Positions 54 to 18,532 of a stretch of 21,198 nt of DNA are shown piece by piece. The translations under genes and the position numbers were made by a program. This DNA comes from Chitinivibrionia bacterium (GTDB taxonomy: Bacteria; Fibrobacterota; Chitinivibrionia; Chitinivibrionales; Chitinivibrionaceae), in the NCBI GenBank assembly GCA_009787445.1, contig WRFX01000025.1:1-21198 (forward strand), in the 5' to 3' direction. Below the pieces are notes generated by a model, which saw only the letters and a list, made by a program, of their open reading frames with translations, was not told where the DNA came from and made no database searches. Position 1 is the stretch's first letter. Each line of letters begins with the position of its first letter.

Positions 54-75
54 GACAAATAGTATTTTTACGGCG
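54..75 (+). promoter_or_regulatory. Recurrent promoter-like motif, instance 1 (gacAAATAGTATTTTTACggcg), upstream of the 105 gene
   Basis: It matches the recurring consensus GGCAAATAgTATTTTTACCG about 30 nt upstream of the start codon. TTGACA hexamers occur at 44-49 and 52-57. Confidence 0.45.
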
Positions 76-949: not shown

Positions 950-2170
950 ATGTCGTGGACAACGGAACAAATAGAAAAATCGGTTTTTAATTTTGAAAAA
1001 TTTGATAAAAAAACGCAAAAAAAAATTATCGAATTTCTGCAAGAAAATATTTCTTTTGACGATTATTTGAAACAAACCGAAAAAAAGAAAAAAGCGATAG
1101 CGAATACGCAAAACGCAAAAAATATCCTTTTGGGAACGCAGCAAAAATATCCGCGGCATTCGGATTTTTCGCAAATCTCCCTAAATTTACAGGACATAAA
1201 AAATTACGCGATTTTAATAACGGCGGGCGGAGAAGGCGAGCGACTTCGTATTTCGCTCAAAGAAAAAGGATATTCCGACGACGACTTAAAGGACTTCACA
1301 AAAGCGACTTTTCCCATTCCAAATACCGATTACAAATTCGGCGCTTTGGAGGTAAATCTTAAAATGCTCGCCGAATTAAACCCCGAAATTCCCGTTATAG
1401 TAACTACGGGACCAGTCGGCTCGGATACCGAAAAAATAATTCCGCGAATTTTAAGAAAAAACGCGAATTTCGGCGTAAAAAATATAGAAATTATCGCTCA
1501 AAACGAACGACTGCACTTGACAAACGAAAATAAAATCGTGTTTGAAATAGACGAAGAAAACATAAAACCGATTACGAATCCCGACGAAACAGGAGGACCT
1601 ATCGCAAAATTAAAAGACGGCGACATTTTGGAAAATCTTGAAAAAAGCGGAATAAAAAAAATTATGATTTTGCAGGGAACCGCCGTTTATTCCGAAAAAA
1701 TTATCCCGATTATCGCGGCGGCGGGGCAAAACTACGACGGTTTGGGAATCGGAATTTTGCGTAACGAATTTATAGAAAGCGACCCGTACGGCACTTTCGT
1801 TTCGATAAACGATTATAATTTACGAATCATAGAAAAAGAAGTGCGAACGCCGCAAACTTACGCGATAAAGAATGAAAACGGGAAATTTCTTCCTTGCAAT
1901 ACAGGATTTTACGTTTTTGATGTTGAATTGTTAAAAAAAATCGAAATGCCCGATTACGCTACGCCGCCGAAAATTATTTTAGAAGGAATTGAAAAGTCGC
2001 CGAAAATCGGATACGCCGCGACAGATATTATCGCTTTTGCGAAAAAACCCGCGGTGCTTACGATTTCCGACGATGATTTTCGCGTGATAAAAAATGCCGA
2101 AGATATTGATGTTTTGTGGAAATTTTGCGGTTGTGGTGAAAATTCTTTGAAAAGAATTTTGTTTTCGTAA
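950..2170 (+). CDS. Nucleotide-sugar pyrophosphorylase-like protein (eukaryotic-type UDPGP/UAP family), 406 aa
   Basis: An AAGGAG RBS at 937-942 precedes the ATG at 950. The glycine-rich motif ILITAGGEGERL resembles the L(A/N)GG(Q/L)GT(R/S)(L/M)G NTP-binding loop of the UDP-sugar pyrophosphorylases UGP and UAP1. Downstream segments (NPEIPVIVTTGPVGSDTEKII and PDETGGPI...KKIMILQGTAVYS) follow the same domain order as that family. Confidence 0.5.
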   Translation: MSWTTEQIEKSVFNFEKFDKKTQKKIIEFLQENISFDDYLKQTEKKKKAIANTQNAKNILLGTQQKYPRHSDFSQISLNLQDIKNYAILITAGGEGERLRISLKEKGYSDDDLKDFTKATFPIPNTDYKFGALEVNLKMLAELNPEIPVIVTTGPVGSDTEKIIPRILRKNANFGVKNIEIIAQNERLHLTNENKIVFEIDEENIKPITNPDETGGPIAKLKDGDILENLEKSGIKKIMILQGTAVYSEKIIPIIAAAGQNYDGLGIGILRNEFIESDPYGTFVSINDYNLRIIEKEVRTPQTYAIKNENGKFLPCNTGFYVFDVELLKKIEMPDYATPPKIILEGIEKSPKIGYAATDIIAFAKKPAVLTISDDDFRVIKNAEDIDVLWKFCGCGENSLKRILFS

Positions 2171-2417
2171 CTTTTTTCGTATTCTTTTCAAAACAAATAT
2201 TATATTGCTCCCGACTTCCGAAGAAATTGGCAGAGGCTGCGGACAGATAAGTTACGGCGGTTTGGTATTCAATATGCAAGACGGAACGATGGAAAAAAGA
2301 GCTGGCGACGACGTGAACAAGTAGATATATGCCGCGCTTGTCGGCGGTTTTGAGAAAATTTGTGTGTTTTTTCGGGGGCGTATTTTGCGGTACGTCCTTT
2401 TTTTTGTTTGGCGTATA

Positions 2418-2440
2418 TTCGGCATATAGTATTTTTTATG
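2418..2440 (+). promoter_or_regulatory. Recurrent promoter-like motif, instance 3 (TTCGGCAtATAGTATTTTTtat), upstream of the uORF and mod
   Basis: Over ~50 nt of motif, spacer and RBS it is nearly identical to the hisE and OMP instances. Confidence 0.45.
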
Positions 2441-2457
2441 GAAAAAGGGAGTAATTT

Positions 2458-2493
2458 ATGAAAACAAGTAAAAATAGAATGTTAAAGATATGA
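2458..2493 (+). CDS. 11-codon upstream ORF (MKTSKNRMLKI) translationally coupled to the methyltransferase gene
   Basis: A strong SD sequence AAGGGAG lies 7 nt upstream of the ATG at 2458. The stop TGA at 2491-2493 overlaps the mod ATG at 2490 (ATGA). The large gene has no SD of its own. The promoter motif at 2418-2440 lies directly upstream. Confidence 0.3.
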   Translation: MKTSKNRMLKI

Positions 2494-5400
2494 TGAAAAA
2501 CACAAGCGTAAACGAAAAATTGAATCGATTTGTCGAACTTTTGGAGGGCATATTTGAACTCGACAAAGCGGATTTGGACTTCGGCATTTACCGCGTTATG
2601 AATATTCGCAAAGACGAGATAAAAAATTTTCTCTCCGACAACTTGCCGAGAAAAATACGGGAAACTCTTGCCCCGTTCGCCGCTAATACCGAAACGCTTA
2701 CCGCTCGCATTGCCGAGATTGAAAAACAAGCCGCCGACCTTGACATAGAAATAACCGCAAGCCCGAAATTATCCGGCGAATATTCCCGTCTCAAATCGCA
2801 ACTTGCGGCTGGTGTGGATTTATCCGCCCTTGAAACGGACGTATATTCCGCTCTGTACAGTTTTTTCAACCGCTACTACGACGAAGGCGATTTTCTTTCC
2901 AAACGCCGCTACAAAGAGGGCGTATACGCAATACCTTACGAAGGCGAAGAGGTAAAACTTCACTGGGCAAACGCCGACCAGTATTATATAAAAACCGCCG
3001 AAAATTTCCGCGATTATTCATTTATCGTCGATAATAAAAAAGTACATTTTATACTCGTTGAAGCGACAACCGAAAAAAATAACAACAAAGAATCAAACGG
3101 CAACGGGCGTACTTTTATGCTATATACGGAAACCGCCGACAGCCCCGACGTTAAAACGATAGAAGGAATAGACGGCGAACTTATCATACGTTTTGTATAT
3201 AACATTCCCGAAGATAAAAAAAGAAATTACGCCGAAGAAAACCTTGCCGCCATAAAGGAGAATATTCATAAAAACTTTCCCGACTTTCAACGTTTACTCG
3301 CGGCAGTTTCCGAAAAAGATAACCGCTCGTTGCTCCAAAAACACTTGACCGCATACGTAGCAAAAAATACGTTTGATTACTTCATTCATAAAGACCTGAA
3401 CGGCTTTTTGACTCGCGAACTTGATTTTTTCATAAAAAGCGAAGTTATTTGTCTCGACGACATCGACACAACCGATGAAAAACGCGTCGAAAGTTACCTT
3501 GCAAAAGTGCGGGCTATAAAGCGCGTCGGAAAAATTATAATTGAATTTTTGTCGCAGATTGAGGAATTTCAGAAAAAACTGTATCTCAAGAAAAAATTCG
3601 TCGTGGAAACAAACTGGTGCTTAACGCTTGACCGCGTAGATGAAAGTTTTTATTCCGAAATAATTGAAAATACAGCGCAGATTGCCGAGTGGCGGGATAT
3701 GTATGCCATTGACGAAATACAAGAAAATTTATCCGCGGCAGTGTATTGCGACCCGCTGACAATTGAATTTCTGCGGCAAAACTCAAACCTTGTACTTGAC
3801 ACACGGCACTTCTCCGCAGATTTTAAAGACCGTCTTGTAGCAAGTATTGATAATTTGGACGAACAGACGGGGGGCTTGCTGATTCACAGCGAAAATTTTC
3901 AGGCGTTGGGATTGTTGCAGGAGAGGTATCGTGGGCAGATTAAGTGCGTCTATATTGACCCGCCGTATAATACCGATGCAAACAGCATTTTATATAAGAA
4001 CGGGTATAAGGATAGCTCTTGGATTAGCTTAATTCAAGATAGACTCCTATTAACAAATATTCTTATGCGTGAAGATTGCCCGATTATTGTAGCTATTGAT
4101 AGTGCAGAACAAGCAGAATTAAAACTTCTATTATCACAGATATATGTAAATTGTGATATTGATTGTGTTGCTATTGTTCATAATCCTAGAGGGATAATAG
4201 GCACAAACTTTTCTTATACCCACGAATATGCTATATTTGTATCGCCAAAAGGGAAAAAGATTGTAGGCAATAAAAAAATAGAACTGGCTGATATTGATTG
4301 GTCTCCCTTGCGAAATTGGGGCGGCGAATCATTAAGAACCGATGCAAAAAATTGTTTTTACCCTATAATAGTTGAAAATGATACCATAATTGGTTTTGGG
4401 GACATATGCGATGATGATTATCATCCAAATCAAACTGAAAAAATCGGAAATCAATTTTTTGTGTACCCTATCGACCAAAATGGTGTTGAACGCAAGTGGC
4501 GTTATGCGAGGCAAACTATTGACACAATTTTCAATTTAATTAAGGCAAAAAAAACAAAAAACGGTTATGATATAGAATTAGGCAAAGATTTTAGCTTGTA
4601 TAAATCCAGTTGGACGGAATCAAAATACGATGCGAGTGTAAATGGAACTCAGCTGATACAATCCATAATTGGCGACAATCCTTTTACATTTCCTAAATCT
4701 TTGTATACTGTTATAGATTGTATTTCTTCTACGACCACTAGTAATTCTATCATCCTCGACTACTTCGCCGGTAGCGGCACCACCGGTCACGCGGTAATAA
4801 ACCTGAACCGCCAAGACAACGGCAACCGCAAATACATCCTCGTGGAAATGGGCGAATACTTCAGCACGGTAATGCTCCCGCGAATGAAAAAAGTCATCTA
4901 TTCCACCGATTGGAAAAACGGCAAGCCGCAAAACCGCAATACCGGCGTAAGCCACATTATGAAGTATTTTACGCTGGAAAGTTACGAGGACGCGCTTTCC
5001 AATATAACGCTTGACGACGATAAACACGAATTGTCGTTAAAATTCGGCGACGAGTATATGGTGCGGTATATGTTTGATTATGAAGCGAAAAACAGTATGC
5101 TCAACCTTGACTTGTTCGCTATGCCTTTCGATTACAAACTGAAAATCAACGAGAACAACGAAACAAAAGAAAAAACCGCCGATTTGTGCGAGACATTTAA
5201 TTATCTTGTCGGATTATCGGTAATAAAACAATCGACGAAAGAATATTTTTCAGCCGACGACGACCCTGACGGCGAGTACGAAAACGCCGTTAGATTGGAA
5301 CCGAATAAAGACGGTAAATTCGTTTTCAAACGGATTGAAGGGAAACTGCCGGATGGCAGACGCGCGCTCGTTATTTGGCGCGTTATTACAGACGATTTAC

Positions 5401-5591
5401 TTAAAAGCAACGCCGCGCTTGACGCGTATTTTTCAAAAAGCAAAAACAATTTTACATACCGCGAATTTGACTTAATATTTGTCAACGGCGACAATAATCT
5501 CGAAAACCTGCGCCGCGACGACGAGAATTGGAAAGTACGGCGCATAGAACCCGTATTCAAAACAAAGATGTTTGAGGCGGCGCAATTTTGA
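2490..5591 (+). CDS. mod: Type III Mod-like beta-class N6-adenine (or N4-cytosine) DNA methyltransferase with ~450-aa N-terminal extension, 1033 aa
   Basis: Motif IV is present as IKCVYIDPPYNT (D490-Y493) and is preceded by LLIHSENFQALGLL. Motif I (SAM-binding) is present as ILDYFAGSGTT (aa ~757). The order IV-TRD-I defines the beta class. A ~260-aa variable region between the motifs is the target-recognition domain (TRD). The stop overlaps the start of the downstream helicase gene. Confidence 0.85.
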   Translation: MMKNTSVNEKLNRFVELLEGIFELDKADLDFGIYRVMNIRKDEIKNFLSDNLPRKIRETLAPFAANTETLTARIAEIEKQAADLDIEITASPKLSGEYSRLKSQLAAGVDLSALETDVYSALYSFFNRYYDEGDFLSKRRYKEGVYAIPYEGEEVKLHWANADQYYIKTAENFRDYSFIVDNKKVHFILVEATTEKNNNKESNGNGRTFMLYTETADSPDVKTIEGIDGELIIRFVYNIPEDKKRNYAEENLAAIKENIHKNFPDFQRLLAAVSEKDNRSLLQKHLTAYVAKNTFDYFIHKDLNGFLTRELDFFIKSEVICLDDIDTTDEKRVESYLAKVRAIKRVGKIIIEFLSQIEEFQKKLYLKKKFVVETNWCLTLDRVDESFYSEIIENTAQIAEWRDMYAIDEIQENLSAAVYCDPLTIEFLRQNSNLVLDTRHFSADFKDRLVASIDNLDEQTGGLLIHSENFQALGLLQERYRGQIKCVYIDPPYNTDANSILYKNGYKDSSWISLIQDRLLLTNILMREDCPIIVAIDSAEQAELKLLLSQIYVNCDIDCVAIVHNPRGIIGTNFSYTHEYAIFVSPKGKKIVGNKKIELADIDWSPLRNWGGESLRTDAKNCFYPIIVENDTIIGFGDICDDDYHPNQTEKIGNQFFVYPIDQNGVERKWRYARQTIDTIFNLIKAKKTKNGYDIELGKDFSLYKSSWTESKYDASVNGTQLIQSIIGDNPFTFPKSLYTVIDCISSTTTSNSIILDYFAGSGTTGHAVINLNRQDNGNRKYILVEMGEYFSTVMLPRMKKVIYSTDWKNGKPQNRNTGVSHIMKYFTLESYEDALSNITLDDDKHELSLKFGDEYMVRYMFDYEAKNSMLNLDLFAMPFDYKLKINENNETKEKTADLCETFNYLVGLSVIKQSTKEYFSADDDPDGEYENAVRLEPNKDGKFVFKRIEGKLPDGRRALVIWRVITDDLLKSNAALDAYFSKSKNNFTYREFDLIFVNGDNNLENLRRDDENWKVRRIEPVFKTKMFEAAQF

Positions 5592-8500
5592 CAAACAAAA
5601 ACGCGGCTTTTTCTAATTTTCAATGGAGCGAACAACTTGTATTGTTTCGTTATTTTCTTTATCTGTTCGGCAAAAATACGCTTGCCGGACTTGCGGGAAA
5701 TATGAACAATTCGGAATATGAAGGCGTTAATGAAAATCAGAATACGTTTTTTTATGACGAATTAGACGGCGTTTTGTCGCGATACGGCGCGAACGCAAAG
5801 GTAAGCCGCGACGCGCTTCGCGAATACGACGAGAATATTTGCCGCTACGTTAAACAAATTGGCGAGAATCGCGGCGGCATTAAACTGAAATATTTTCAGT
5901 ATATCGCGTGTTTATTTACCGAAATATATCTTGACCGTTATTTTACGGACAAAACCGGATTTGCGGAAGAATTAAACGAATTTTCGAAAAAAGTAAAAAA
6001 AGAAAGTTCCGGCTCGATAGACATTGAACAATTCACGCCCGCAAATATGAATAAACTGGCTTTTATGTGCGCCACGGGCAGCGGCAAAACGCTTATTATG
6101 CATATAAATATTTTGCAATTTTCATATTATCTTAAAAAGGCGAAAATGTTTAATCCGCGTATAAATATTAACAAGATTATCGTTCTTGCGCCGAACGAAG
6201 GAATGTCCCAACAACATTTGGCGGAACTTTATTTGTCGCGCATATCGGCGGAGATGTTCGTAAAAAGCGGTTTCGGCAATAGCGCCGATGTGGTCATCGT
6301 AGATATGAACAAACTAAAAGAGGAAGGTAAGGTAAAAACCGTTTCCGTCGACAGTTTTGAACAGAACAATCTCGTGCTTGTGGACGAGGCGCATCGCGGG
6401 CTTGCCGGCGACGTGTGGTACGATTACCGCTCGCGTCTTTCGGCGGAAGGCGGCTTTGCGTTTGAATATTCCGCCACGCTTAAACAGGCGATGAAAACGC
6501 TGAACGTTAAAAAAGACAAAACGCTTCTCGACGAGTATTTCCGTTCGATTATCATTGACTATTCGTATAAATTCTTTTACGAAGACGGTTACGGCAAAGA
6601 ATACCGAATTTATAATCTGCAAGACAGTATAGACGATGAACAGCGGCAATTATATCTTACGGGATGTTTGTTGTCGTTTTATCAACAACTGAAATTATTT
6701 GCGCAAAAAGTCAAGGAGTATGCGCCGTTTAGTTTGGAAAAGCCGCTGCTTGTTTTTGTCGGCAATCGCGTAACTGCAAAAACGTCCGCCGCCGAGATGA
6801 CCGACGTCGAGGAAGTTTTGGACTTTATCGATAAATTCGCGCATAACAGGGAACGAACGATAGGTCGGATAAACGCCGTTTTAAACGAAGACACGGGACT
6901 TACGGACAGCCGCGGACGCGAACTGTTTTCGCAAAATTTCAACGCCTTATTTTCGCTGTTCGGCGCCGCGCCAAAAGCGGAGGACGTTTATAAAGATATT
7001 TTGCGCGTCGTGTTCAACAGCGATACGGTATCCGACGAATTGCGTTTGCATCTCTTAAACTTGCGTCAAGTGCAAGGCGAAATAGCGTTGCGTATAGGAA
7101 AAGACGGCAAGTATTTCGGCGTGATAAGTATCGGGGATACTTCGGGACTTATTAAAAACTGCGAGGCAAAGGGTATTTTTGCCGAAACGGAGGAATTTGT
7201 CAATGAATCGCTGTTTGGAAATATTAACGAAAAAGTATCTAATATTAACGTTCTTATCGGTTCGCGCAAATTTAGCGAAGGATGGAACTCGTGGCGCGTT
7301 TCGACTATGGGACTTATTAACTTCGCGAAGAGCGAAGGGTCTCAGGCAATACAACTTTTCGGTCGCGGCGTGCGGTTGCGCGGATACGGCGGCTGCCTGA
7401 AACGAAGCGGCAAATTAGACGACCGTTCTATTGTTGCGCCGAAAAACATAGAATTGCTCGAAACTTTGACAATATTCGGTATCAAGGCGAAGTATATGGA
7501 AGATTTCAAAAGACATCTTGAAATAGAAGGTATGCCCGTCAACGAGAAACCTCGCGAATACGCGCTACCGGTTATAAGCCGATACGGTGAAATTAAAGAT
7601 AAAAAACTCCGCGTAATTAAGGTTAAAGACGGCGCGAATTTTAAGAAACAGGCGGCGCGGCTAATGCTAGCGGCGCCGGACGAAGGGTTTTTACGTTATT
7701 TGAACGGAAACAAAGCGATTATTGACTGCCGTTCAAAAGTGCAAACGCTGGAATCCGCGTCGAATGAAAGAATACAATTAGCGCCAAGCGAATATACTAT
7801 TGACGAAAAGTATATTCCGTTTCTTGATTACGAGCGAATTTTTGACGAATTACAAACTTATAAAAACGCTAAACTTTATTATAATATTTCTTTGTCTAAA
7901 GACAAAATAAAGGCAATTTTGCTGACGGACGGATGGTACGGGCTTATTATCCCCCCAAGCCATATAAATATCGACAGCATAGAAAAACTTTCTTTAAATA
8001 CCGATTTTGCAATAATGGTATTAAAAATTTATATCGACAAATTTTACAAATACGAAAAAGACCGATGGGAAACCCCGCGGCTCGAATATCAGGAATTGGA
8101 CGAAAACGACAATAATTTTGTCGACGAATACAAATTCTCCTGTTACGGTAATGACGGCGCCGACTCCGTTGCAGATACTGTGGAGCAGTTTGTCAAGGAC
8201 TTGAACGTGCTACTAAAACAGCATAACGGTATTCCGGCATACGAGAATAGTATATTGAACGGCGCGCTTGTCGCTTTTGACTTTCGGCAACATTTGTACA
8301 CGCCGCTTATATCCAAAGCAGGCGACTTAAAATTGACCGTATCTCCCGTAAGTTTGAACGACGACGAGAAAAAATTTGTCGACAAACTGAAATACTATGT
8401 CGACGATAACGTCGATATGTTCGACGGCAAAACATTATATCTGCTCCGCAATAAGAGCAAAATAGGTATGGGCTTTTTTGAAGCGGGCAATTTTTATCCC

Positions 8501-8827
8501 GACTATGTACTTTGGATAGATACGCCAAAAATACAATATGTTTCCTTCATTGACCCGAAAGGACTGCGCCATATACAATGGGACGACCCAAAAATCGAAT
8601 TTTATGCCGCAATAAAAAATCTTGAAACCAGATTGCAGCCGTCAAGCGCCGATAAACAAATTGTGTTGAACTCGTTTATAATGTCCGCTACACGTTGCGA
8701 AGACCTGCGTCAATGGTGGGGCAAGGATATGGCGCAACGCCGCGCCAAGAATGTATTCTGCCTCGACGAGAGCGATTGCATTGAGGGAATGTTCGAGTTA
8801 ATTAAAGATAATTTTAAGAAAACGTAA
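5588..8827 (+). CDS. res: Type III Res-like SF2 DEAH-box helicase with C-terminal PD-(D/E)xK endonuclease motif, 1079 aa (alternative ATG start at 5702)
   Basis: The Walker A motif is CATGSGKTL (aa ~162-168). Motif II is LVLVDEAHRG (DEAH at 266-269). Motif III is YSATL. Motif VI is QLFGRGVRLRG (~aa 589). The C-terminal sequence FYPDYVLWID...VSFIDPKG gives a PD-(x16)-DxK nuclease signature (aa ~971-991). The TTG at 5588 follows GAGG at 10-nt spacing and overlaps the mod stop (tTGA). The first in-frame ATG is at 5702. Confidence 0.85.
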   Translation: MTNKNAAFSNFQWSEQLVLFRYFLYLFGKNTLAGLAGNMNNSEYEGVNENQNTFFYDELDGVLSRYGANAKVSRDALREYDENICRYVKQIGENRGGIKLKYFQYIACLFTEIYLDRYFTDKTGFAEELNEFSKKVKKESSGSIDIEQFTPANMNKLAFMCATGSGKTLIMHINILQFSYYLKKAKMFNPRININKIIVLAPNEGMSQQHLAELYLSRISAEMFVKSGFGNSADVVIVDMNKLKEEGKVKTVSVDSFEQNNLVLVDEAHRGLAGDVWYDYRSRLSAEGGFAFEYSATLKQAMKTLNVKKDKTLLDEYFRSIIIDYSYKFFYEDGYGKEYRIYNLQDSIDDEQRQLYLTGCLLSFYQQLKLFAQKVKEYAPFSLEKPLLVFVGNRVTAKTSAAEMTDVEEVLDFIDKFAHNRERTIGRINAVLNEDTGLTDSRGRELFSQNFNALFSLFGAAPKAEDVYKDILRVVFNSDTVSDELRLHLLNLRQVQGEIALRIGKDGKYFGVISIGDTSGLIKNCEAKGIFAETEEFVNESLFGNINEKVSNINVLIGSRKFSEGWNSWRVSTMGLINFAKSEGSQAIQLFGRGVRLRGYGGCLKRSGKLDDRSIVAPKNIELLETLTIFGIKAKYMEDFKRHLEIEGMPVNEKPREYALPVISRYGEIKDKKLRVIKVKDGANFKKQAARLMLAAPDEGFLRYLNGNKAIIDCRSKVQTLESASNERIQLAPSEYTIDEKYIPFLDYERIFDELQTYKNAKLYYNISLSKDKIKAILLTDGWYGLIIPPSHINIDSIEKLSLNTDFAIMVLKIYIDKFYKYEKDRWETPRLEYQELDENDNNFVDEYKFSCYGNDGADSVADTVEQFVKDLNVLLKQHNGIPAYENSILNGALVAFDFRQHLYTPLISKAGDLKLTVSPVSLNDDEKKFVDKLKYYVDDNVDMFDGKTLYLLRNKSKIGMGFFEAGNFYPDYVLWIDTPKIQYVSFIDPKGLRHIQWDDPKIEFYAAIKNLETRLQPSSADKQIVLNSFIMSATRCEDLRQWWGKDMAQRRAKNVFCLDESDCIEGMFELIKDNFKKT

Positions 8828-8861
8828 AAAAATTAGAGGCGGACAAAATTAAAATATAAGG

Positions 8862-8885
8862 AGAGGTTTATACTCTTTTTATCTA
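8862..8885 (+). terminator. Weak intrinsic-terminator-like hairpin downstream of res
   Basis: A 4-5-bp stem (aGAGg...CTCTt) closes a 7-nt loop and is followed by a TTTT run. The stem is weak and AT-rich. Confidence 0.2.
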
Positions 8886-8929
8886 AAAAAAACAACAAAA
8901 AATTAAAAGTTAAAATACTGAAAATTACA

Positions 8930-8953
8930 TTCGGCAAATAGTATTTTTACCGC
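8930..8953 (+). promoter_or_regulatory. Recurrent promoter-like motif, instance 4 (TTCGGCAAATAGTATTTTTACCGC), upstream of hisE
   Basis: This is the best match to the consensus, 19 nt upstream of the hisE ATG. Confidence 0.5.
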
Positions 8954-8971
8954 AAAAATAAGGAGTAATTT

Positions 8972-9235
8972 ATGAAAACGTTTGAAAGTTTATTTAGCGA
9001 GTTGAAAACTAAAATTGAAAACAAAGACCCGAATTCGTACACGGTTAAGGAATACGAAAAAGGCGTGCATTTTATCGGAAAAAAAATAATCGAAGAAGCG
9101 GGCGAGGTATGGATTGCGAGCGAATACGAAGGCAACGAAAAAACCGCCGAAGAAATGTCGCAGTTGATTTATCATATTCAAGTAATGATGCTTGCAAAAG
9201 GCATTACGATAGACGATATTTACGGATATTTATAG
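8972..9235 (+). CDS. hisE: Phosphoribosyl-ATP pyrophosphatase (monofunctional HisE), 87 aa
   Basis: An AAGGAG RBS sits at 8959-8964. The sequence SYTVKEY...[14 protein letters not shown]...[19 protein letters not shown] carries the conserved PRA-PH (MazG-like) motifs, including the (L/I)YH motif. Confidence 0.8.
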
Positions 9236-9245
9236 GAGAAAAAAA

Positions 9246-10094
9246 ATGCTTAAAATTGCAATTCCCAACAAAGGCGCTTTGAACGAAACCGCGCTTGAAA
9301 TAATAAAAAGAGCGGGATATAAATGCCAGATATACGGCAAAGAACTGGTAGTGCGCGACAGCGAACACGACATAGATTTTTATTTTTTGCGCCCGCGCGA
9401 TATTGCGGTTTACATAGGCGACGGAATTATAGATTTGGGAATTACGGGGCGCGATTTGTCTGTCGATAGCAGAGCGAAATACGAGGAAATTTTGCCGCTT
9501 GATTTCGGAAATTCCAGATTTTTTTATGCGGTTCCAAAAGACAGCGCGCTTACGCCCGAAAAACTTAACGGGAAGCGAATCGCTACGGCGTATCCCGCCA
9601 TCGTCGAGCGGGATTTGAAAAAACGCGGATTCGACGCGGAGATAATAAAACTCGACGGCGCGGTGGAAATTTCTATACAGTTGGGAGTCGCGGACGCTAT
9701 CGCCGACGTCGTGGAGAGCGGAAGAACGCTTGTGGAGGCGGGACTTAAAACAATCGGCGAGCCGATTATGGAATCGCAGGCGCTTATTATCGCGAAAGAT
9801 AAAAGCAAACTGAACGATAAAACGGCGAAAATTTTTGTAGAACGTCTCGAAAGCGTGATTATTGCAAAACAGTATTTGATGGTCGAATACGACATTTCAA
9901 AGGAAAATATAGAAAAGGCGGCAAAACTTACGCCGGGAATAGAATCGCCTACTGTTTCGCCGTTAAGCGTAGAAGGATGGTTTGCGGTAAAAGCGATGGT
10001 AAAAGCAAAAGGAGTGAATAAACTTTTGGACGATTTGCACAACGTCGGCGCGAAAGGAATTATCGTCAGCGAAATTAAAATTTGCAGATTGTGA
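9246..10094 (+). CDS. hisG: ATP phosphoribosyltransferase, long form, 282 aa
   Basis: An AGGAG RBS sits at 9233-9237. The N-terminus is MLKIAIPNKGALNETALEII. The segment LRPRDIAVYIGDGIIDLGITGRDL matches the HisG signature region. A C-terminal regulatory domain is present. Confidence 0.9.
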   Translation: MLKIAIPNKGALNETALEIIKRAGYKCQIYGKELVVRDSEHDIDFYFLRPRDIAVYIGDGIIDLGITGRDLSVDSRAKYEEILPLDFGNSRFFYAVPKDSALTPEKLNGKRIATAYPAIVERDLKKRGFDAEIIKLDGAVEISIQLGVADAIADVVESGRTLVEAGLKTIGEPIMESQALIIAKDKSKLNDKTAKIFVERLESVIIAKQYLMVEYDISKENIEKAAKLTPGIESPTVSPLSVEGWFAVKAMVKAKGVNKLLDDLHNVGAKGIIVSEIKICRL

Positions 10095-13961: not shown

Positions 13962-13984
13962 ATCGGCAGTTAGTATTTTTATCC
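13962..13984 (+). promoter_or_regulatory. Recurrent promoter-like motif, instance upstream of the OMP-lptFG operon (aTCGGCAgtTAGTATTTTTAtcc)
   Basis: The same motif is followed by aaaaaaTAAGGAttaaaactATG, which mirrors the hisE arrangement. Confidence 0.45.
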
Positions 13985-15955: not shown

Positions 15956-18532
15956 ATGATATTTTACAGATACATAGTAAAAGAATTTATGCGTCCGTTT
16001 TTATACTCGGTCGCGGTGATTTTTATAGTTTTTTTTATGCAACTCGTCGCGCAAATTTTACCGAGAGTATTATATAGAGGCGTTTCGTTTGAGATAGTTG
16101 CGGAATTGTTGGTCGTGAATATGGCAGCTATAATTTCTTTGGCTTTGCCTATGGCTCTTTTAATTTCGTCGCTTATGGTTTTTGGAAAATTATCGTCCGA
16201 CAACGAATATACCGCAATGAAATCGGTGGGAATGAGTTTGTTCGATATGTTGCCGCCGATAGTCAGTTTAAGCGCGATAATCGCCGTACTTTTAATGATT
16301 TTCAACAGCAATATTTTGCCCAACGTAAATCATCACGCGGCGCAACTTATGTCGGATATTATGCGAAAAAAACCCGCCGCGCTTATCGAGCCGGGAGTTC
16401 TAATAAAGGATTTTCAGGGTTATGCGATAAAAGTGGATTCGGTAACGACGGGAACGGGAAATTTATACGGAATTACTATTTTTACGACGCAAAACGACCA
16501 AATTCCTATGGTAAGCGTAGCGGACAGCGGAACGCTTTATCTGACAAAAGACGAAAAATATTTGGAATTGACGCTTTTTTCGGGGCAGACGATTAGCGAA
16601 AACATAAGCGGCGAAAGCGGCGGAAGCGAGGCGAATTTTTTTAAGATAAATTTTGAAAAACAGACGATTTTTGTAGAAAATATAGACAGCGAATTTACCC
16701 GAAGCGATTTGCACAATCGCGGAAATCGCGAAATGGCAAACAAAGAACTTTTAGATGAAATTTCCAATTATAACGAAACGATTTCAAACGAAATAATTTC
16801 GTTTAACGACCGACTTTTAGAAATTACCGAAAGAATAGACGACGCTGCGTCCGATACGTCGGCGATTCTTTATATGGACGATTTTTCTCAATGGTATTCG
16901 GCGGTAATCGCCCGTTTGGGAAGTAGAAACGTTAGCGAAATAAAAAGCGAAATAAATTTCACAAAAGCCAGATTGCAAAGAATCGACGAGTATAAAATCG
17001 AACTCAATAAATACAAAATGGAGATTTATAAAAAATATTCGCTTGCAGTCGGCGCGGTGATTTTCGTTATTTTGGGCGTTCCTTTGGGAATAATCGCGCG
17101 CAACGGAAGCGCCGCAATCAGCGTGAGTTACAGTTTGATATTTTTCATTTTTCACTGGACGTTTTTGATAGGCGGCGAATATTTGGTAAATCAGGGAAAA
17201 CTTATTCCCAGCGTCGCTATGTGGGGAGGAAACGCGATTTTTGCGCTCGTCGCCGTGTGGCTTTTAAGAAAGGTGTCGGGCTACGAAAGCAAGTTTAATA
17301 TATTGTCCGTTTTCGGCGCGTTTGCGGACGTAGTTAAAAAGTTCTTCAAAATAACGAAATTAAATCTTGTTTTCGGTTTTGTAAAAACGCTTTTAGGATT
17401 ATTTGCGGATTTGCCGAGAATTGTCCTGAAACTGTTTTTATCGACTATTCCCGCGTATATTATCGGACGATTTTTCTCGTATTTTTTCGTAACGACAATC
17501 GGACTTTGCGTTATTACGGCGGTTATCGATTTTGTAGGAAACATTCATACGTTTACGGGGGCGAAAACTCCCGAATTAGTTAATTATTACTTATATTTTG
17601 TCGCGTCGTTTCTGTCTATGCTTTTGCCTATCTCTATGCTTTTGTCGGTTATGCTTTCGGTGGGTTCCTTCGCGAAAACAAACGAATTGACGGCTATAAA
17701 ATCGGGCGGAATAAGCATCGCAAAAATGACTTCTCCGCTTATACTTATAGGATTTATTATCGCCGTCGGGAATTTTTTCTTCAACGAGACGTTTTTGGGC
17801 AACGCGAACGAAAAATTGGAATTATACAGAAACACGTTTTCCGCTCGGCAGCAAGGACGACCCATTCCGACGGAAGTCGTAGAATTTCGCCGAAATTTTT
17901 ATTATTTTTCCGATGAAAATACCGCCTATTATTTCAGAAAAATCAACACTTCGCCCGCAAACGGCGAAACGGTCGTGCGTTATTCTTTTGAAAATAACAG
18001 AGTAAAAAGTATTGCGACGTCCGATTTTTTGGAATATTCTACCGAAAAAAAACAGTGGATTATGCCCAACGGACAGGAAAAAATTCTGCAACGGGACGGC
18101 GAGGTTTTAGCGAATATTTTGACGCAAAATATACTTTTAGACCTTAATCAGCCGCCAAGCGATATGGTAAAAACTATACGAAGAATAGAAATGATGAGTT
18201 GGACGGAATTGCAAAAAAGAATGGAAAATGCAAAACAACGCGGAGAAAAAACGCAAAAGTATTTGGCAGATAGTAATTTTAAGTTTTCCTTGCCGCTTAT
18301 GAACGTAATTGTCGTGCTTGTCGGCATCGCGGTAACAGCCCGCTCGACCAAACGCGGAGGCGCCGTGCATTTTGGAGCGGGACTTGGATTTGTGTTTATT
18401 TATTGGGGAATCGCGCAATTTTTGATTGTGCTTGGAAGAAACGAATCGGTAGACCCGATAGTCGCGGCGTGGAGCGCGACGGCGCTTTTTACGATTTTAG
18501 GATTTTTTCTTTATACGAGGGCTTCGAGATGA
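15956..18532 (+). CDS. Fused LptF-LptG-like LPS export permease (two tandem YjgP/YjgQ-family modules), 858 aa
   Basis: The first module begins MIFYRYIVKEFMRPFLYSVAVIF..., the typical LptF/G N-terminus. The second module begins ~aa 470 (LPRIVLKLFLSTIPAYIIGRFFSYFFVTTIGLCVITAVID). Each module has TM segments followed by a periplasmic beta-jellyroll-like stretch. Confidence 0.75.
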   Translation: MIFYRYIVKEFMRPFLYSVAVIFIVFFMQLVAQILPRVLYRGVSFEIVAELLVVNMAAIISLALPMALLISSLMVFGKLSSDNEYTAMKSVGMSLFDMLPPIVSLSAIIAVLLMIFNSNILPNVNHHAAQLMSDIMRKKPAALIEPGVLIKDFQGYAIKVDSVTTGTGNLYGITIFTTQNDQIPMVSVADSGTLYLTKDEKYLELTLFSGQTISENISGESGGSEANFFKINFEKQTIFVENIDSEFTRSDLHNRGNREMANKELLDEISNYNETISNEIISFNDRLLEITERIDDAASDTSAILYMDDFSQWYSAVIARLGSRNVSEIKSEINFTKARLQRIDEYKIELNKYKMEIYKKYSLAVGAVIFVILGVPLGIIARNGSAAISVSYSLIFFIFHWTFLIGGEYLVNQGKLIPSVAMWGGNAIFALVAVWLLRKVSGYESKFNILSVFGAFADVVKKFFKITKLNLVFGFVKTLLGLFADLPRIVLKLFLSTIPAYIIGRFFSYFFVTTIGLCVITAVIDFVGNIHTFTGAKTPELVNYYLYFVASFLSMLLPISMLLSVMLSVGSFAKTNELTAIKSGGISIAKMTSPLILIGFIIAVGNFFFNETFLGNANEKLELYRNTFSARQQGRPIPTEVVEFRRNFYYFSDENTAYYFRKINTSPANGETVVRYSFENNRVKSIATSDFLEYSTEKKQWIMPNGQEKILQRDGEVLANILTQNILLDLNQPPSDMVKTIRRIEMMSWTELQKRMENAKQRGEKTQKYLADSNFKFSLPLMNVIVVLVGIAVTARSTKRGGAVHFGAGLGFVFIYWGIAQFLIVLGRNESVDPIVAAWSATALFTILGFFLYTRASR

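What the first reader, a model, noticed from the sequence alone, without database searches (positions are those of the whole stretch)
2458..2493. Leader mini-ORF with a consensus RBS overlapping the mod start (ATGA): translational coupling via a uORF
The large MTase ATG at 2490 has no SD. A perfect AAGGGAG-N7-ATG lies 32 nt upstream and opens an 11-codon ORF whose TGA overlaps the MTase ATG. This arrangement usually means that ribosomes terminating the leader re-initiate on the main gene. For R-M systems it is a plausible way to set or delay methyltransferase expression after establishment in a new host.
Basis: seen in the sequence. Interest (0 to 1): 0.5.

Follow-up and report, generated by a model that had tools for sequence, protein, structure and literature searches.

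The report
Duplicated hisE start drives inserted R-M
The small leader ORF in front of the methyltransferase gene is real, but it is a duplicated copy of the neighbouring hisE gene's promoter box, ribosome-binding site and first three codons, left at the edge of an inserted type III restriction-modification cassette; it is not a conserved regulatory leader, although it probably does feed ribosomes to the methyltransferase gene.

Summary
ATG 2458 opens an 11-codon ORF (MKTSKNRMLKI) whose TGA (2491-2493) overlaps the mod ATG (2490). It is preceded by AAGGGAG with a 6-nt spacer, not 7. mod has no SD of its own: duplex energy is -0.9 kcal/mol, against -6.0 to -9.2 for the other genes and -7.9 for the mini-ORF.

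The mini-ORF is not a conserved device. None of 133 other homologous mod loci has this arrangement, and the closest homologues all carry a direct SD.

Its origin is a direct repeat flanking the type III mod-res cassette. Positions 2414-2465 repeat 8926-8979, which is the native promoter-like box, SD and first 8 nt of hisE (18 nt exact; both ORFs begin MKT). Six relatives have this hisE 5' region once, with no R-M beside it. This fits the known class "R-M insertion with long target duplication".

The likely consequence is inferred, not shown. The cassette would be transcribed from the duplicated hisE promoter copy and translated by termination-reinitiation at AUGA/UGAUG.

The ATGA overlap itself carries little weight. 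Given the fusion, one reading frame in three produces it. The idea of delaying the methyltransferase has no support.

This is a new member of a known kind, of modest interest.

The parts
2374..2409 (+). Terminator-like hairpin (11-bp stem) followed by a T-run, immediately upstream of the left repeat copy. It would insulate mod-res from upstream transcription.
   Evidence: terminator scan; fold -12.3 kcal/mol, z -2.2, 5 of 200 shuffles fold as well.
2414..2465 (+). Left copy of the duplicated hisE 5' region: promoter-like box, SD, ATG and 5 more nt. The right end is sharp at 2465. The left end is uncertain (2414-2442).
   Evidence: repeats D2 and D6; blastn 2414-2465 against 8926-8979, about 83% over 54 nt; the 18-nt exact GGAGTAATTTATGAAAAC occurs only at 2448 and 8962; this is the top-scoring pair among 78 pairs of SD-ATG sites.
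2422..2438 (+). Promoter-like box GCATATAGTATTTTTTA, an instance of a box that recurs upstream of genes in this organism.
   Evidence: 8 matches against 0.26 expected, at 55, 913, 2422, 8934, 13966 and others; 14 of 18 instances in Chitinivibrionia loci lie 22-71 nt upstream of an ORF.
2445..2451 (+). SD-like AAGGGAG, 6 nt before ATG 2458.
   Evidence: duplex energy -7.9 kcal/mol.
2458..2493 (+). Chimeric 11-codon mini-ORF MKTSKNRMLKI*. Codons 1-3 (8 nt) are copied from hisE and the rest reads through the cassette's 5' flank. Its TGA overlaps the mod ATG.
2466..2489 (+). 24-nt cassette-side 5' flank of mod with no SD and no homologue found. All three reading frames stop within it or at the mod start.
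2490..5591 (+). mod, a type III DNA methyltransferase of 1033 aa. An alternative start lies at 2493.
   Evidence: PF01555. PADLOC MTase_III, 7e-202. N-terminal agreement with homologues.
5588..8827 (+). res, a type III restriction subunit of 1079 aa. Its TTG start overlaps the mod TGA (TTGA), with GAGG 10 nt upstream.
   Evidence: ResIII. REase_III, 5e-180.: -7.7 kcal/mol..
8828..8925 (+). 3' flank of the cassette between res and the right repeat copy. No terminator-like site was found on the + strand.
8926..8979 (+). Right copy: the native hisE promoter-like box, SD (TAAGGAG) and first 8 nt of hisE. It is conserved upstream of hisE in relatives that lack the R-M.
8972..9235 (+). hisE (phosphoribosyl-ATP diphosphatase, 87 aa), intact. 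It is the source of the duplicated start.
   Evidence: NF001610, 137 bits against a cut-off of 104..

Best explanation
A two-gene type III restriction-modification cassette (mod-res, about 6.46 kb, 2466-8925) sits in the chromosome of a Chitinivibrionia (Fibrobacterota) bacterium, 8 nt inside the start of hisE. It is flanked by a direct duplication of the hisE 5' region. The right copy (8926-8979) still serves hisE. The left copy (2414-2465) places a copy of the hisE promoter-like box, SD and ATG-AAA-AC in front of mod.

Reading from that ATG into the cassette's 24-nt SD-less 5' flank creates the 11-codon chimeric mini-ORF, which ends in AUGA on the mod start. The mini-ORF is therefore a by-product of 'insertion with long target duplication' or a closely related rearrangement. 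It is not a conserved leader.

The following steps are inferred, not shown. mod-res is transcribed from the duplicated promoter copy, just downstream of a terminator-like hairpin. Ribosomes load at the captured SD, translate the mini-ORF, terminate at UGA 2491-2493 and re-initiate at AUG 2490 or 2493. This would give SD-less mod its translation. res follows by an ordinary TTGA overlap with its own SD.

My confidence in the duplication origin is about 0.85. My confidence that coupling is the main route of mod translation is about 0.5.
For: Duplication:
- Repeats D2 and D6 flank the cassette.
- The exact 18-nt GGAGTAATTTATGAAAAC occurs only at 2448 and 8962.
- This is the best-scoring pair among all SD-ATG sites in the window: score 62 against the next best 46, and an in-register exact run of 18 against at most 11 for any other pair.
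- Both ORFs start MKT.

The native copy is the right one:
- Six relatives (L016 at 94% nt identity, then L017, L019, L180, L182, L183) carry this hisE 5' region once, with no R-M upstream. Their homology to the window begins at 8909-8936.

Cassette identity:
- PADLOC MTase_III 7e-202 and REase_III 5e-180. Only these two genes lie between the repeats.

Dependence of mod on the captured signals:
- mod SD energy is -0.9, the mini-ORF -7.9, and real genes -6.0 to -9.2.
- 101 of 134 homologous loci, and all close homologues, have a direct SD.
- A terminator-like hairpin lies just upstream.
- The promoter-like box recurs upstream of genes.
- The leader is unstructured, so nothing masks the start.

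Known precedents:
- R-M insertion with target duplication longer than 30 bp, for types I-IV (PMC2853133).
- ATGA/TGATG termination-reinitiation (PMC6728339).

The junctions are real: independent assemblies are identical across them.
Against: - No same-species empty site was found. Every contig with the identical hisE or upstream protein also carries the R-M.
- The left flank is not syntenic in any relative. Homology of the upstream UDPGP-like gene breaks at 2127-2145 and 2146-2413 is an orphan. A further rearrangement has happened, so a simple one-step target duplication is not proven.
- Part of the repeat (2414-2441) matches a promoter consensus shared by other genes. hisE against gene 14006 scores 46. 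The securely duplicated part is therefore only about 24 nt.
- Flank similarity beyond the repeat is not significant.
- Coupling is untested. In E. coli, removing the SD of the downstream gene cut re-initiation by 60-90% in three of five pairs and abolished it in a fourth (PMC6728339). SD-less re-initiation may therefore be inefficient.
- The A-rich unstructured leader could also allow direct SD-independent initiation.
- All strains seen are identical here, so selection on the mini-ORF cannot be measured.
Confidence: 0.55

Rival explanations
1. Same origin, a duplicated hisE start, but the mini-ORF has no function or is mildly inhibitory. mod would be translated by direct SD-independent initiation on its open A-rich leader, as in the related Bacteroidota, or only at a very low level.
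For: - The leader has no structure (z +0.76).
- 33 of 134 homologous loci have no SD, mostly from Bacteroidota.
- SD-less re-initiation is often inefficient (PMC6728339).
- The ATGA overlap is expected in 1 of 3 frames by chance.
Against: - Every other gene start examined in this window has an SD of -6.0 to -9.2 kcal/mol, so this organism appears to rely on SDs.
- Ribosomes loaded 32 nt upstream and terminating on the start codon would in any case dominate what happens at that AUG.
Confidence: 0.3
2. One reading: an evolved leader uORF belonging to the R-M system, which sets or delays methyltransferase expression on entry into a new host.
For: - The geometry is right: SD, 6 nt, ATG, 11 codons, ATGA.
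- mod lacks an SD.
- A subset of homologous systems has a small upstream HTH gene overlapping mod by ATGA, so upstream coupling to mod does recur in the family.
Against: - It is absent from all 133 other loci, and the close homologues use a direct SD.
- Its SD, spacer and first 8 nt are copied from hisE, so it did not travel with the cassette.
- There is no alternative RNA structure and no Rfam match.
- Delaying methylation would be harmful, because methylation must precede restriction (abstract of PMC2997769, listed).
Confidence: 0.04
3. No duplication occurred. The left element is an independent instance of this organism's stereotyped promoter/SD/start architecture that happens to resemble hisE.
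For: - The promoter-like box and the AAAAA-AAGGAG leader are shared by several genes.
- hisE against gene 14006 scores 46 and hisE against orf105 scores 40.
Against: - The 18-nt exact run covers the non-consensus spacer TAATTT and ATGAAAAC. It occurs only at these two sites, and the longest in-register run in any other pair is 11 nt.
- The partner is precisely the gene on the other side of the cassette.
- The same spacer is ancestral for hisE in L016 and L019.
- A promoter with an SD and an ATG that opens only 11 codons has no other reason to exist.
Confidence: 0.08
4. Sequencing or assembly error, or a programmed frameshift: the true mod protein starts at ATG 2458.
For: ATG 2458 has the only SD in the region.
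Against: - Independent assemblies from different samples are identical here.
- The mod frame has stops at 2469 and 2475.
- Homologues start at the position of 2490/2493.
- I saw no slippery heptamer when reading the sequence.
Confidence: 0.02

Closest known systems
R-M gene insertion with long target duplication (Nobusato et al. 2000, recalled from memory; Furuta, Abe & Kobayashi 2010, PMC2853133)
   Same: An R gene plus an M gene and no mobility gene form an insert under 20 kb. The insert is flanked by a direct repeat of tens of bp that occurs once in related genomes. That paper reports type III examples.
   Different: Here the duplicated target is the complete expression start of a host gene: promoter-like box, SD, ATG and 5 more nt. 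The insert, which lacks an SD, appears to be driven by the copy. The empty site is known only from other species, and the left flank has been rearranged further.
Translational coupling by termination-reinitiation at ATGA/TGATG overlaps (Huber et al. 2019, PMC6728339)
   Same: The stop of the upstream ORF overlaps the start of the downstream gene by 4 nt, and by 1 nt for the second ATG. The res gene in the same operon shows the ordinary form (TTGA with an SD).
   Different: The upstream ORF is an 11-codon chimera rather than a gene. The downstream gene has no SD, which in most tested E. coli pairs greatly lowers re-initiation.
Small HTH (controller-like) genes overlapping the methyltransferase start in homologous type III loci
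   Same: In L020, L023, L110, L114, L116, L117 and L141 an upstream ORF ends in ATGA on the mod start.
   Different: Those are 74-96-aa proteins matching helix-turn-helix families (HTH_26 above Pfam's cut-off; HTH_17 above the cut-off in L141 and just below it in L020), and mod keeps its own strong SD. The window has no such gene, and the C-terminus of its mini-ORF does not resemble theirs.
Regulatory leader peptides and attenuators (for example the trp and erm leaders; from general knowledge)
   Same: A short SD-led ORF lies in the 5' leader of an operon.
   Different: There is no conserved peptide, no regulatory codons, no alternative hairpins and no conservation.

Membership tests
R-M insertion with long target duplication (criteria of PMC2853133) | The inserted segment contains both R and M gene homologues. 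| tested here: met
   mod 2490-5591 and res 5588-8827. PADLOC MTase_III 7e-202 and REase_III 5e-180.
R-M insertion with long target duplication (criteria of PMC2853133) | The insert is shorter than 20 kb and has no other mobile-element genes. | tested here: met
   There are 6460 nt between the repeat copies (2466-8925). Of the plus-strand ORFs of at least 60 aa inside it, only mod and res have protein-family matches; the others lie inside mod or res.
R-M insertion with long target duplication (criteria of PMC2853133) | A flanking direct repeat (target duplication) longer than 30 bp. | tested here: inconclusive
   2414-2465 against 8926-8979 is about 83% identical over 52-54 nt. Only 2442-2465 (22 of 24, with 18 exact) is clearly beyond the shared promoter consensus.
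R-M insertion with long target duplication (criteria of PMC2853133) | A related genome shows the empty site, with one copy of the target and both flanks collinear. | tested here: inconclusive
   Six relatives have a single hisE 5' region with no R-M, and the right flank is collinear. The left flank is not collinear in any of them. No R-M-free strain of the same species was found.
Translational coupling by termination-reinitiation | The stop codon of the upstream ORF overlaps or abuts the start codon of the downstream gene on one mRNA. | tested here: met
   ATGATG at 2490-2495, with TGA at 2491-2493. Co-transcription is inferred only.
Translational coupling by termination-reinitiation | Translation of the downstream gene depends on translation of the upstream ORF. 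| not testable with these tools
   This needs reporter fusions or ribosome profiling. Indirect support: mod has no SD (-0.9 kcal/mol).
Conserved regulatory leader ORF of an R-M system | The leader ORF and its RBS are conserved in homologous loci. | tested here: not met
   None of 133 other loci has an SD-less mod with an SD-led mini-ORF. The close homologues have a direct SD.
Conserved regulatory leader ORF of an R-M system | Alternative RNA structures or a known RNA family in the leader. | tested here: not met
   No Rfam match at E up to 1. The fold of 2440-2570 is no better than shuffles, z +0.76.
Type III restriction-modification system | Adjacent co-oriented mod (N6/N4 methyltransferase) and res (ResIII helicase-nuclease) genes. 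| tested here: met
   The two genes overlap by TTGA.

The most novel reading that the evidence does not exclude
The duplication is more than a scar. It could be a general way for promoter-less, SD-less R-M cassettes to become expressed on arrival. Under this reading, inserting just inside the start of a host gene and duplicating that gene's promoter, SD and ATG gives the cassette a ready-made host expression module. A short chimeric ORF then acts as the adapter that hands ribosomes to mod, while the host gene is left intact.
Probability: 0.15. Interest if true: 0.55.

Novelty: new member of a known kind. Interest (0 to 1): 0.3.

Why it matters
The case shows how a feature that looks like a regulatory uORF can arise in one step from a genome rearrangement. 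It is a caution against reading every SD-led mini-ORF as an evolved regulator.

If the coupling is real, it is a clean natural example of an inserted defence operon running entirely on a copied host promoter and ribosome-binding site. It comes from a phylum (Fibrobacterota, class Chitinivibrionia) in which R-M mobility, promoters and translation signals are, to my knowledge, little studied.

It also adds a likely type III example, from outside the groups listed in PMC2853133, to the 'long target duplication' class.

Tried and rejected
- Rfam scan of 1900-2800 at E up to 1 found nothing.
- The leader fold has no structure that could mask or unmask the mod start.
- The sigma-70 consensus scan found no promoter on the + strand near the leader. 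The organism uses a different box.
- Empty-site search:
  - Exact-protein look-ups of hisE and of the upstream 406-aa protein returned only contigs that also carry the R-M.
  - A genome-contig scan with the 406-aa protein found no relative.
  - Homologues of the 406-aa protein (93%, 95% and 75% identity) have other genes downstream (PfkB or DivIVA), with homology breaking at 2127-2145.
- Tests of whether either copy's outer flank continues the native hisE upstream region gave alignment scores no better than shuffles. I do not claim left-flank continuity.
- I tested whether the 24-nt 5' flank is the remnant of an upstream HTH gene like those in some homologous loci. The C-termini (…EEGTTK, …GGVRQ) do not resemble …SKNRMLKI, so I rejected this.
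- No nucleotide similarity was found between 2146-2489 or 8828-8925 and any of 161 mod loci.
- Base composition and GC3 of the cassette do not differ from the host genes, so they say nothing about foreign origin.
- Assembly error or frameshift was rejected.
- The 7-codon ORF at 2438-2461 also ends in ATGA, on the mini-ORF's start. It has no SD (-1.7) and lies in the promoter box, so I treat it as chance.

Full report
**1. The observation**

- ATG 2458 opens 11 sense codons (MKTSKNRMLKI). They end at TGA 2491-2493, which overlaps the ATG of the large methyltransferase gene at 2490 (ATGA).
- A second ATG at 2493 also gives a TGATG overlap.
- AAGGGAG lies at 2445-2451, 6 nt before the ATG, not 7.
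- The mod start is placed correctly. The N-terminus MMKNTSVNEKLNRF aligns with 119 homologues that begin a few residues before EKLNRF, and the mod frame has stops at 2469 and 2475.

mod really has no SD.
- Duplex energy with the anti-SD is -0.9 kcal/mol at both candidate ATGs.
- The mini-ORF scores -7.9.
- The other gene starts of the window score -6.0 to -9.2. The annotated TTG of FTHFS is a mis-start; its real ATG follows GGGGA.
- The background mean is -2.2.

The arrangement is also uncommon against composition alone. In dinucleotide shuffles of the intergenic region, 59 of 5000 give an SD-ATG ORF ending in the ATGA overlap.

**2. Context**

The window is an entire 21,198-nt contig of a Chitinivibrionia (Fibrobacterota) MAG. 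The hisG product is 100% identical to an NCBI/JGI protein from a contig of exactly that length, and the closest relatives of the flanking genes are Chitinivibrionia or Chitinispirillales MAGs.

The genes 2490-5591 and 5588-8827 form a type III R-M pair.
- mod matches Pfam N6_N4_Mtase and PADLOC MTase_III at 7e-202.
- res matches ResIII and PADLOC REase_III at 5e-180.
- res starts at a TTG that overlaps the mod stop (TTGA), with GAGG 10 nt upstream.

The neighbours are a UDP-sugar-pyrophosphorylase-like gene upstream (950-2170) and hisE (8972-9235) with hisG downstream.

**3. What the mini-ORF is**

A direct repeat brackets the R-M pair: 2414-2465 repeats 8926-8979 (families D2 and D6, about 83% over 54 nt).

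The right copy is the native 5' end of hisE. It holds a promoter-like box (GCAAATAGTATTTTTAC), TAAGGAG, the spacer TAATTT, and ATGAAAAC. The left copy holds the same elements, and its ATG is the mini-ORF start.
- The 18-nt string GGAGTAATTTATGAAAAC occurs exactly at these two places and nowhere else in the window.
- hisE begins MKTFESLF and the mini-ORF begins MKTSKN.
- Identity stops sharply after the 8th nucleotide of the ORF.

Six relatives carry this hisE 5' region once, with other genes upstream (an unidentified gene, flagellin, PNPase, a CinA-like gene) and no R-M. They are L016 (94% nt identity), L017, L019, L180, L182 and L183. Their homology to the window begins at 8909-8936. hisE is therefore the source, and the left copy is the derived duplicate.

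**4. A caveat I checked**

The promoter-like part of the repeat is also a consensus.
- The box occurs at 55, 913, 2422, 8934 and 13966 on the + strand and upstream of FTHFS and the Band-7 gene on the - strand.
- 14 of 18 instances in Chitinivibrionia loci lie 22-71 nt upstream of an ORF.
- hisE's 5' region therefore also resembles that of gene 14006 (score 46) and orf105 (score 40).

The mini-ORF/hisE pair is still the top pair (score 62). Its in-register exact run is 18 nt, against at most 11 for any other pair. That run covers the non-consensus spacer and the first codons, and the partner is exactly the gene on the far side of the cassette.

I therefore treat the duplication as well supported (about 0.85). 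Only about 24 nt (2442-2465) is secure. About 52 nt is likely.

**5. Fit to a known class**

Furuta et al. (PMC2853133) define R-M 'insertion with long target duplication' by four features:
- R and M genes both lie in the insert;
- the insert is shorter than 20 kb;
- the repeat is longer than 30 bp;
- no other mobile element is involved.

They report the class for types I-IV. Here the insert is 6460 nt with only mod and res. The repeat length is met if the 52-nt estimate is accepted.

The empty site is only partly documented.
- All contigs with identical hisE or upstream protein also carry the R-M.
- In relatives the left side is not collinear. Homology of the upstream gene breaks at 2127-2145, and 2146-2413 matches nothing.
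- Tests for continuity of either copy's outer flank with the native hisE upstream region were not significant.

At least one more rearrangement has therefore touched the left side.

**6. Is it a conserved R-M leader?**

No. I collected 80 loci from GTDB genomes and 80 from metagenomes, plus the 71%-identical paralogue from the same sample. I assigned the mod start by the conserved DLDFGIYR anchor in 134 loci, counting the window.
- 101 loci have a direct SD (-5 kcal/mol or stronger).
- The 33 without one are mostly Bacteroidota.
- No other locus combines an SD-less mod with an SD-led mini-ORF.
- All homologues of 53-71% identity have AAGGAG or GGAG 5-9 nt before the ATG.

A subset does have a real upstream gene ending in ATGA on mod. 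These are 74-96-aa helix-turn-helix proteins (HTH_26, HTH_17), and mod keeps its SD there. Their C-termini are unrelated to the mini-ORF.

**7. How it most likely works**

*Shown:*
- The left copy keeps an intact box, SD and ATG with the spacing seen at real genes.
- An 11-bp hairpin with a T-run (2374-2409; -12.3 kcal/mol, z -2.2) lies just upstream.
- The 24-nt stretch between the copy and mod has no SD.
- The leader is unstructured.
- The stop and start overlap.

*Inferred:*
- Transcription of mod-res begins in the left copy.
- Ribosomes load at the captured SD, translate the chimeric ORF and re-initiate at AUG 2490 or 2493.

ATGA and TGATG overlaps give strict coupling in most tested pairs. 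Removing the downstream SD usually lowers re-initiation by 60-90% in E. coli (PMC6728339), so the output may be modest.

The ATGA overlap itself is weak evidence of design. The three frames through the 24-nt flank stop at 2469, 2483 or 2491, so any junction would have produced a short uORF, and one frame in three gives the overlap.

The main rival keeps the same origin but has mod initiate directly on its open A-rich leader (about 0.3).

The idea of delaying the methyltransferase is not supported and runs against the requirement that methylation precede restriction (abstract of PMC2997769, listed).

**8. Verdict**

The finding is best described as a type III R-M cassette flanked by a duplicated hisE expression start. 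It is a new member of a known kind, with one neat twist: the duplicated target supplies the promoter, the SD and a start codon. Interest is modest.

Noticed in passing
window 55-71, 913-929, 2422-2438, 8934-8950, 13966-13982 (+); about 13356 and 11627 (-): A recurrent box, consensus about GCAAATA(G/T)TATTTTTAC, lies about 35-50 nt upstream of start codons. It is usually followed by an A-run and AAGGAG. It is probably this lineage's main promoter element, and from my own knowledge it resembles the Bacteroidetes -7 motif TAnnTTTG. There were 8 matches against 0.26 expected, and 14 of 18 instances in Chitinivibrionia loci precede ORFs.
   Followed up: partly
L020 1025-1250, L023, L110, L114, L116, L117, L141 (upstream of mod): In a subset of homologous type III loci a 74-96-aa gene with helix-turn-helix family matches (HTH_26 above Pfam's cut-off; HTH_17 above the cut-off in L141 and just below it in L020) ends in ATGA on the mod start. 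It may be a controller-like regulator translationally coupled to mod.
   Followed up: partly
L048, L055, L058, L060, L074, L079, L093 and about 15 more loci: In a further subset of mod loci, about 20 in all, a long upstream ORF (about 950 codons at full length in L048, L055, L058, L060, L074, L079 and L093) ends 2-11 nt before mod, a different gene order for the family. Its identity was not examined.
   Followed up: no
window 2127-2413: Synteny of the UDP-sugar-pyrophosphorylase-like gene breaks at 2127-2145. Relatives continue into PfkB or DivIVA, while here the last ~9-15 codons differ. The stretch 2146-2413 matches nothing fetched and ends in a terminator-like hairpin. This is a second rearrangement junction next to the R-M.
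   Followed up: partly
window 9286-9608 (hisG): 19 of the 22 differences between the window and the near-identical contig L001 (11.6 kb compared) fall in a 323-nt stretch of hisG just downstream of the insertion. This looks like a recombination tract between strains.
   Followed up: no
window 2438-2461: A 7-codon ORF (ATGGAAAAAGGGAGTAATTTATGA) also ends in ATGA, on the start of the mini-ORF. It has no SD (-1.7 kcal/mol) and lies in the promoter box, so I treat it as chance.
   Followed up: yes
L019 8604-14089; L017/L012 (one 170-kb contig): Gene order around hisE-hisG is very fluid in this clade. L019 has hisE-hisG-UDPGP-PfkB-PriA in a row. L017/L012 has the UDPGP-PfkB-PriA block inverted about 14 kb away. 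The window has UDPGP upstream of hisE.
   Followed up: no
window 15956-18532: A single 858-aa ORF carries two LptF/LptG permease domains, apparently a fused LptF-LptG.
   Followed up: no
L002 60-180: The 71%-identical mod paralogue from the same sample is preceded by a repeated GGGTGCCCTCC motif (two copies) adjacent to GC-rich palindromic sequence (CGCCCCGTAGGGGCGGGG), and starts at GTG with GAGGAG upstream. The repeats were not examined.
   Followed up: no
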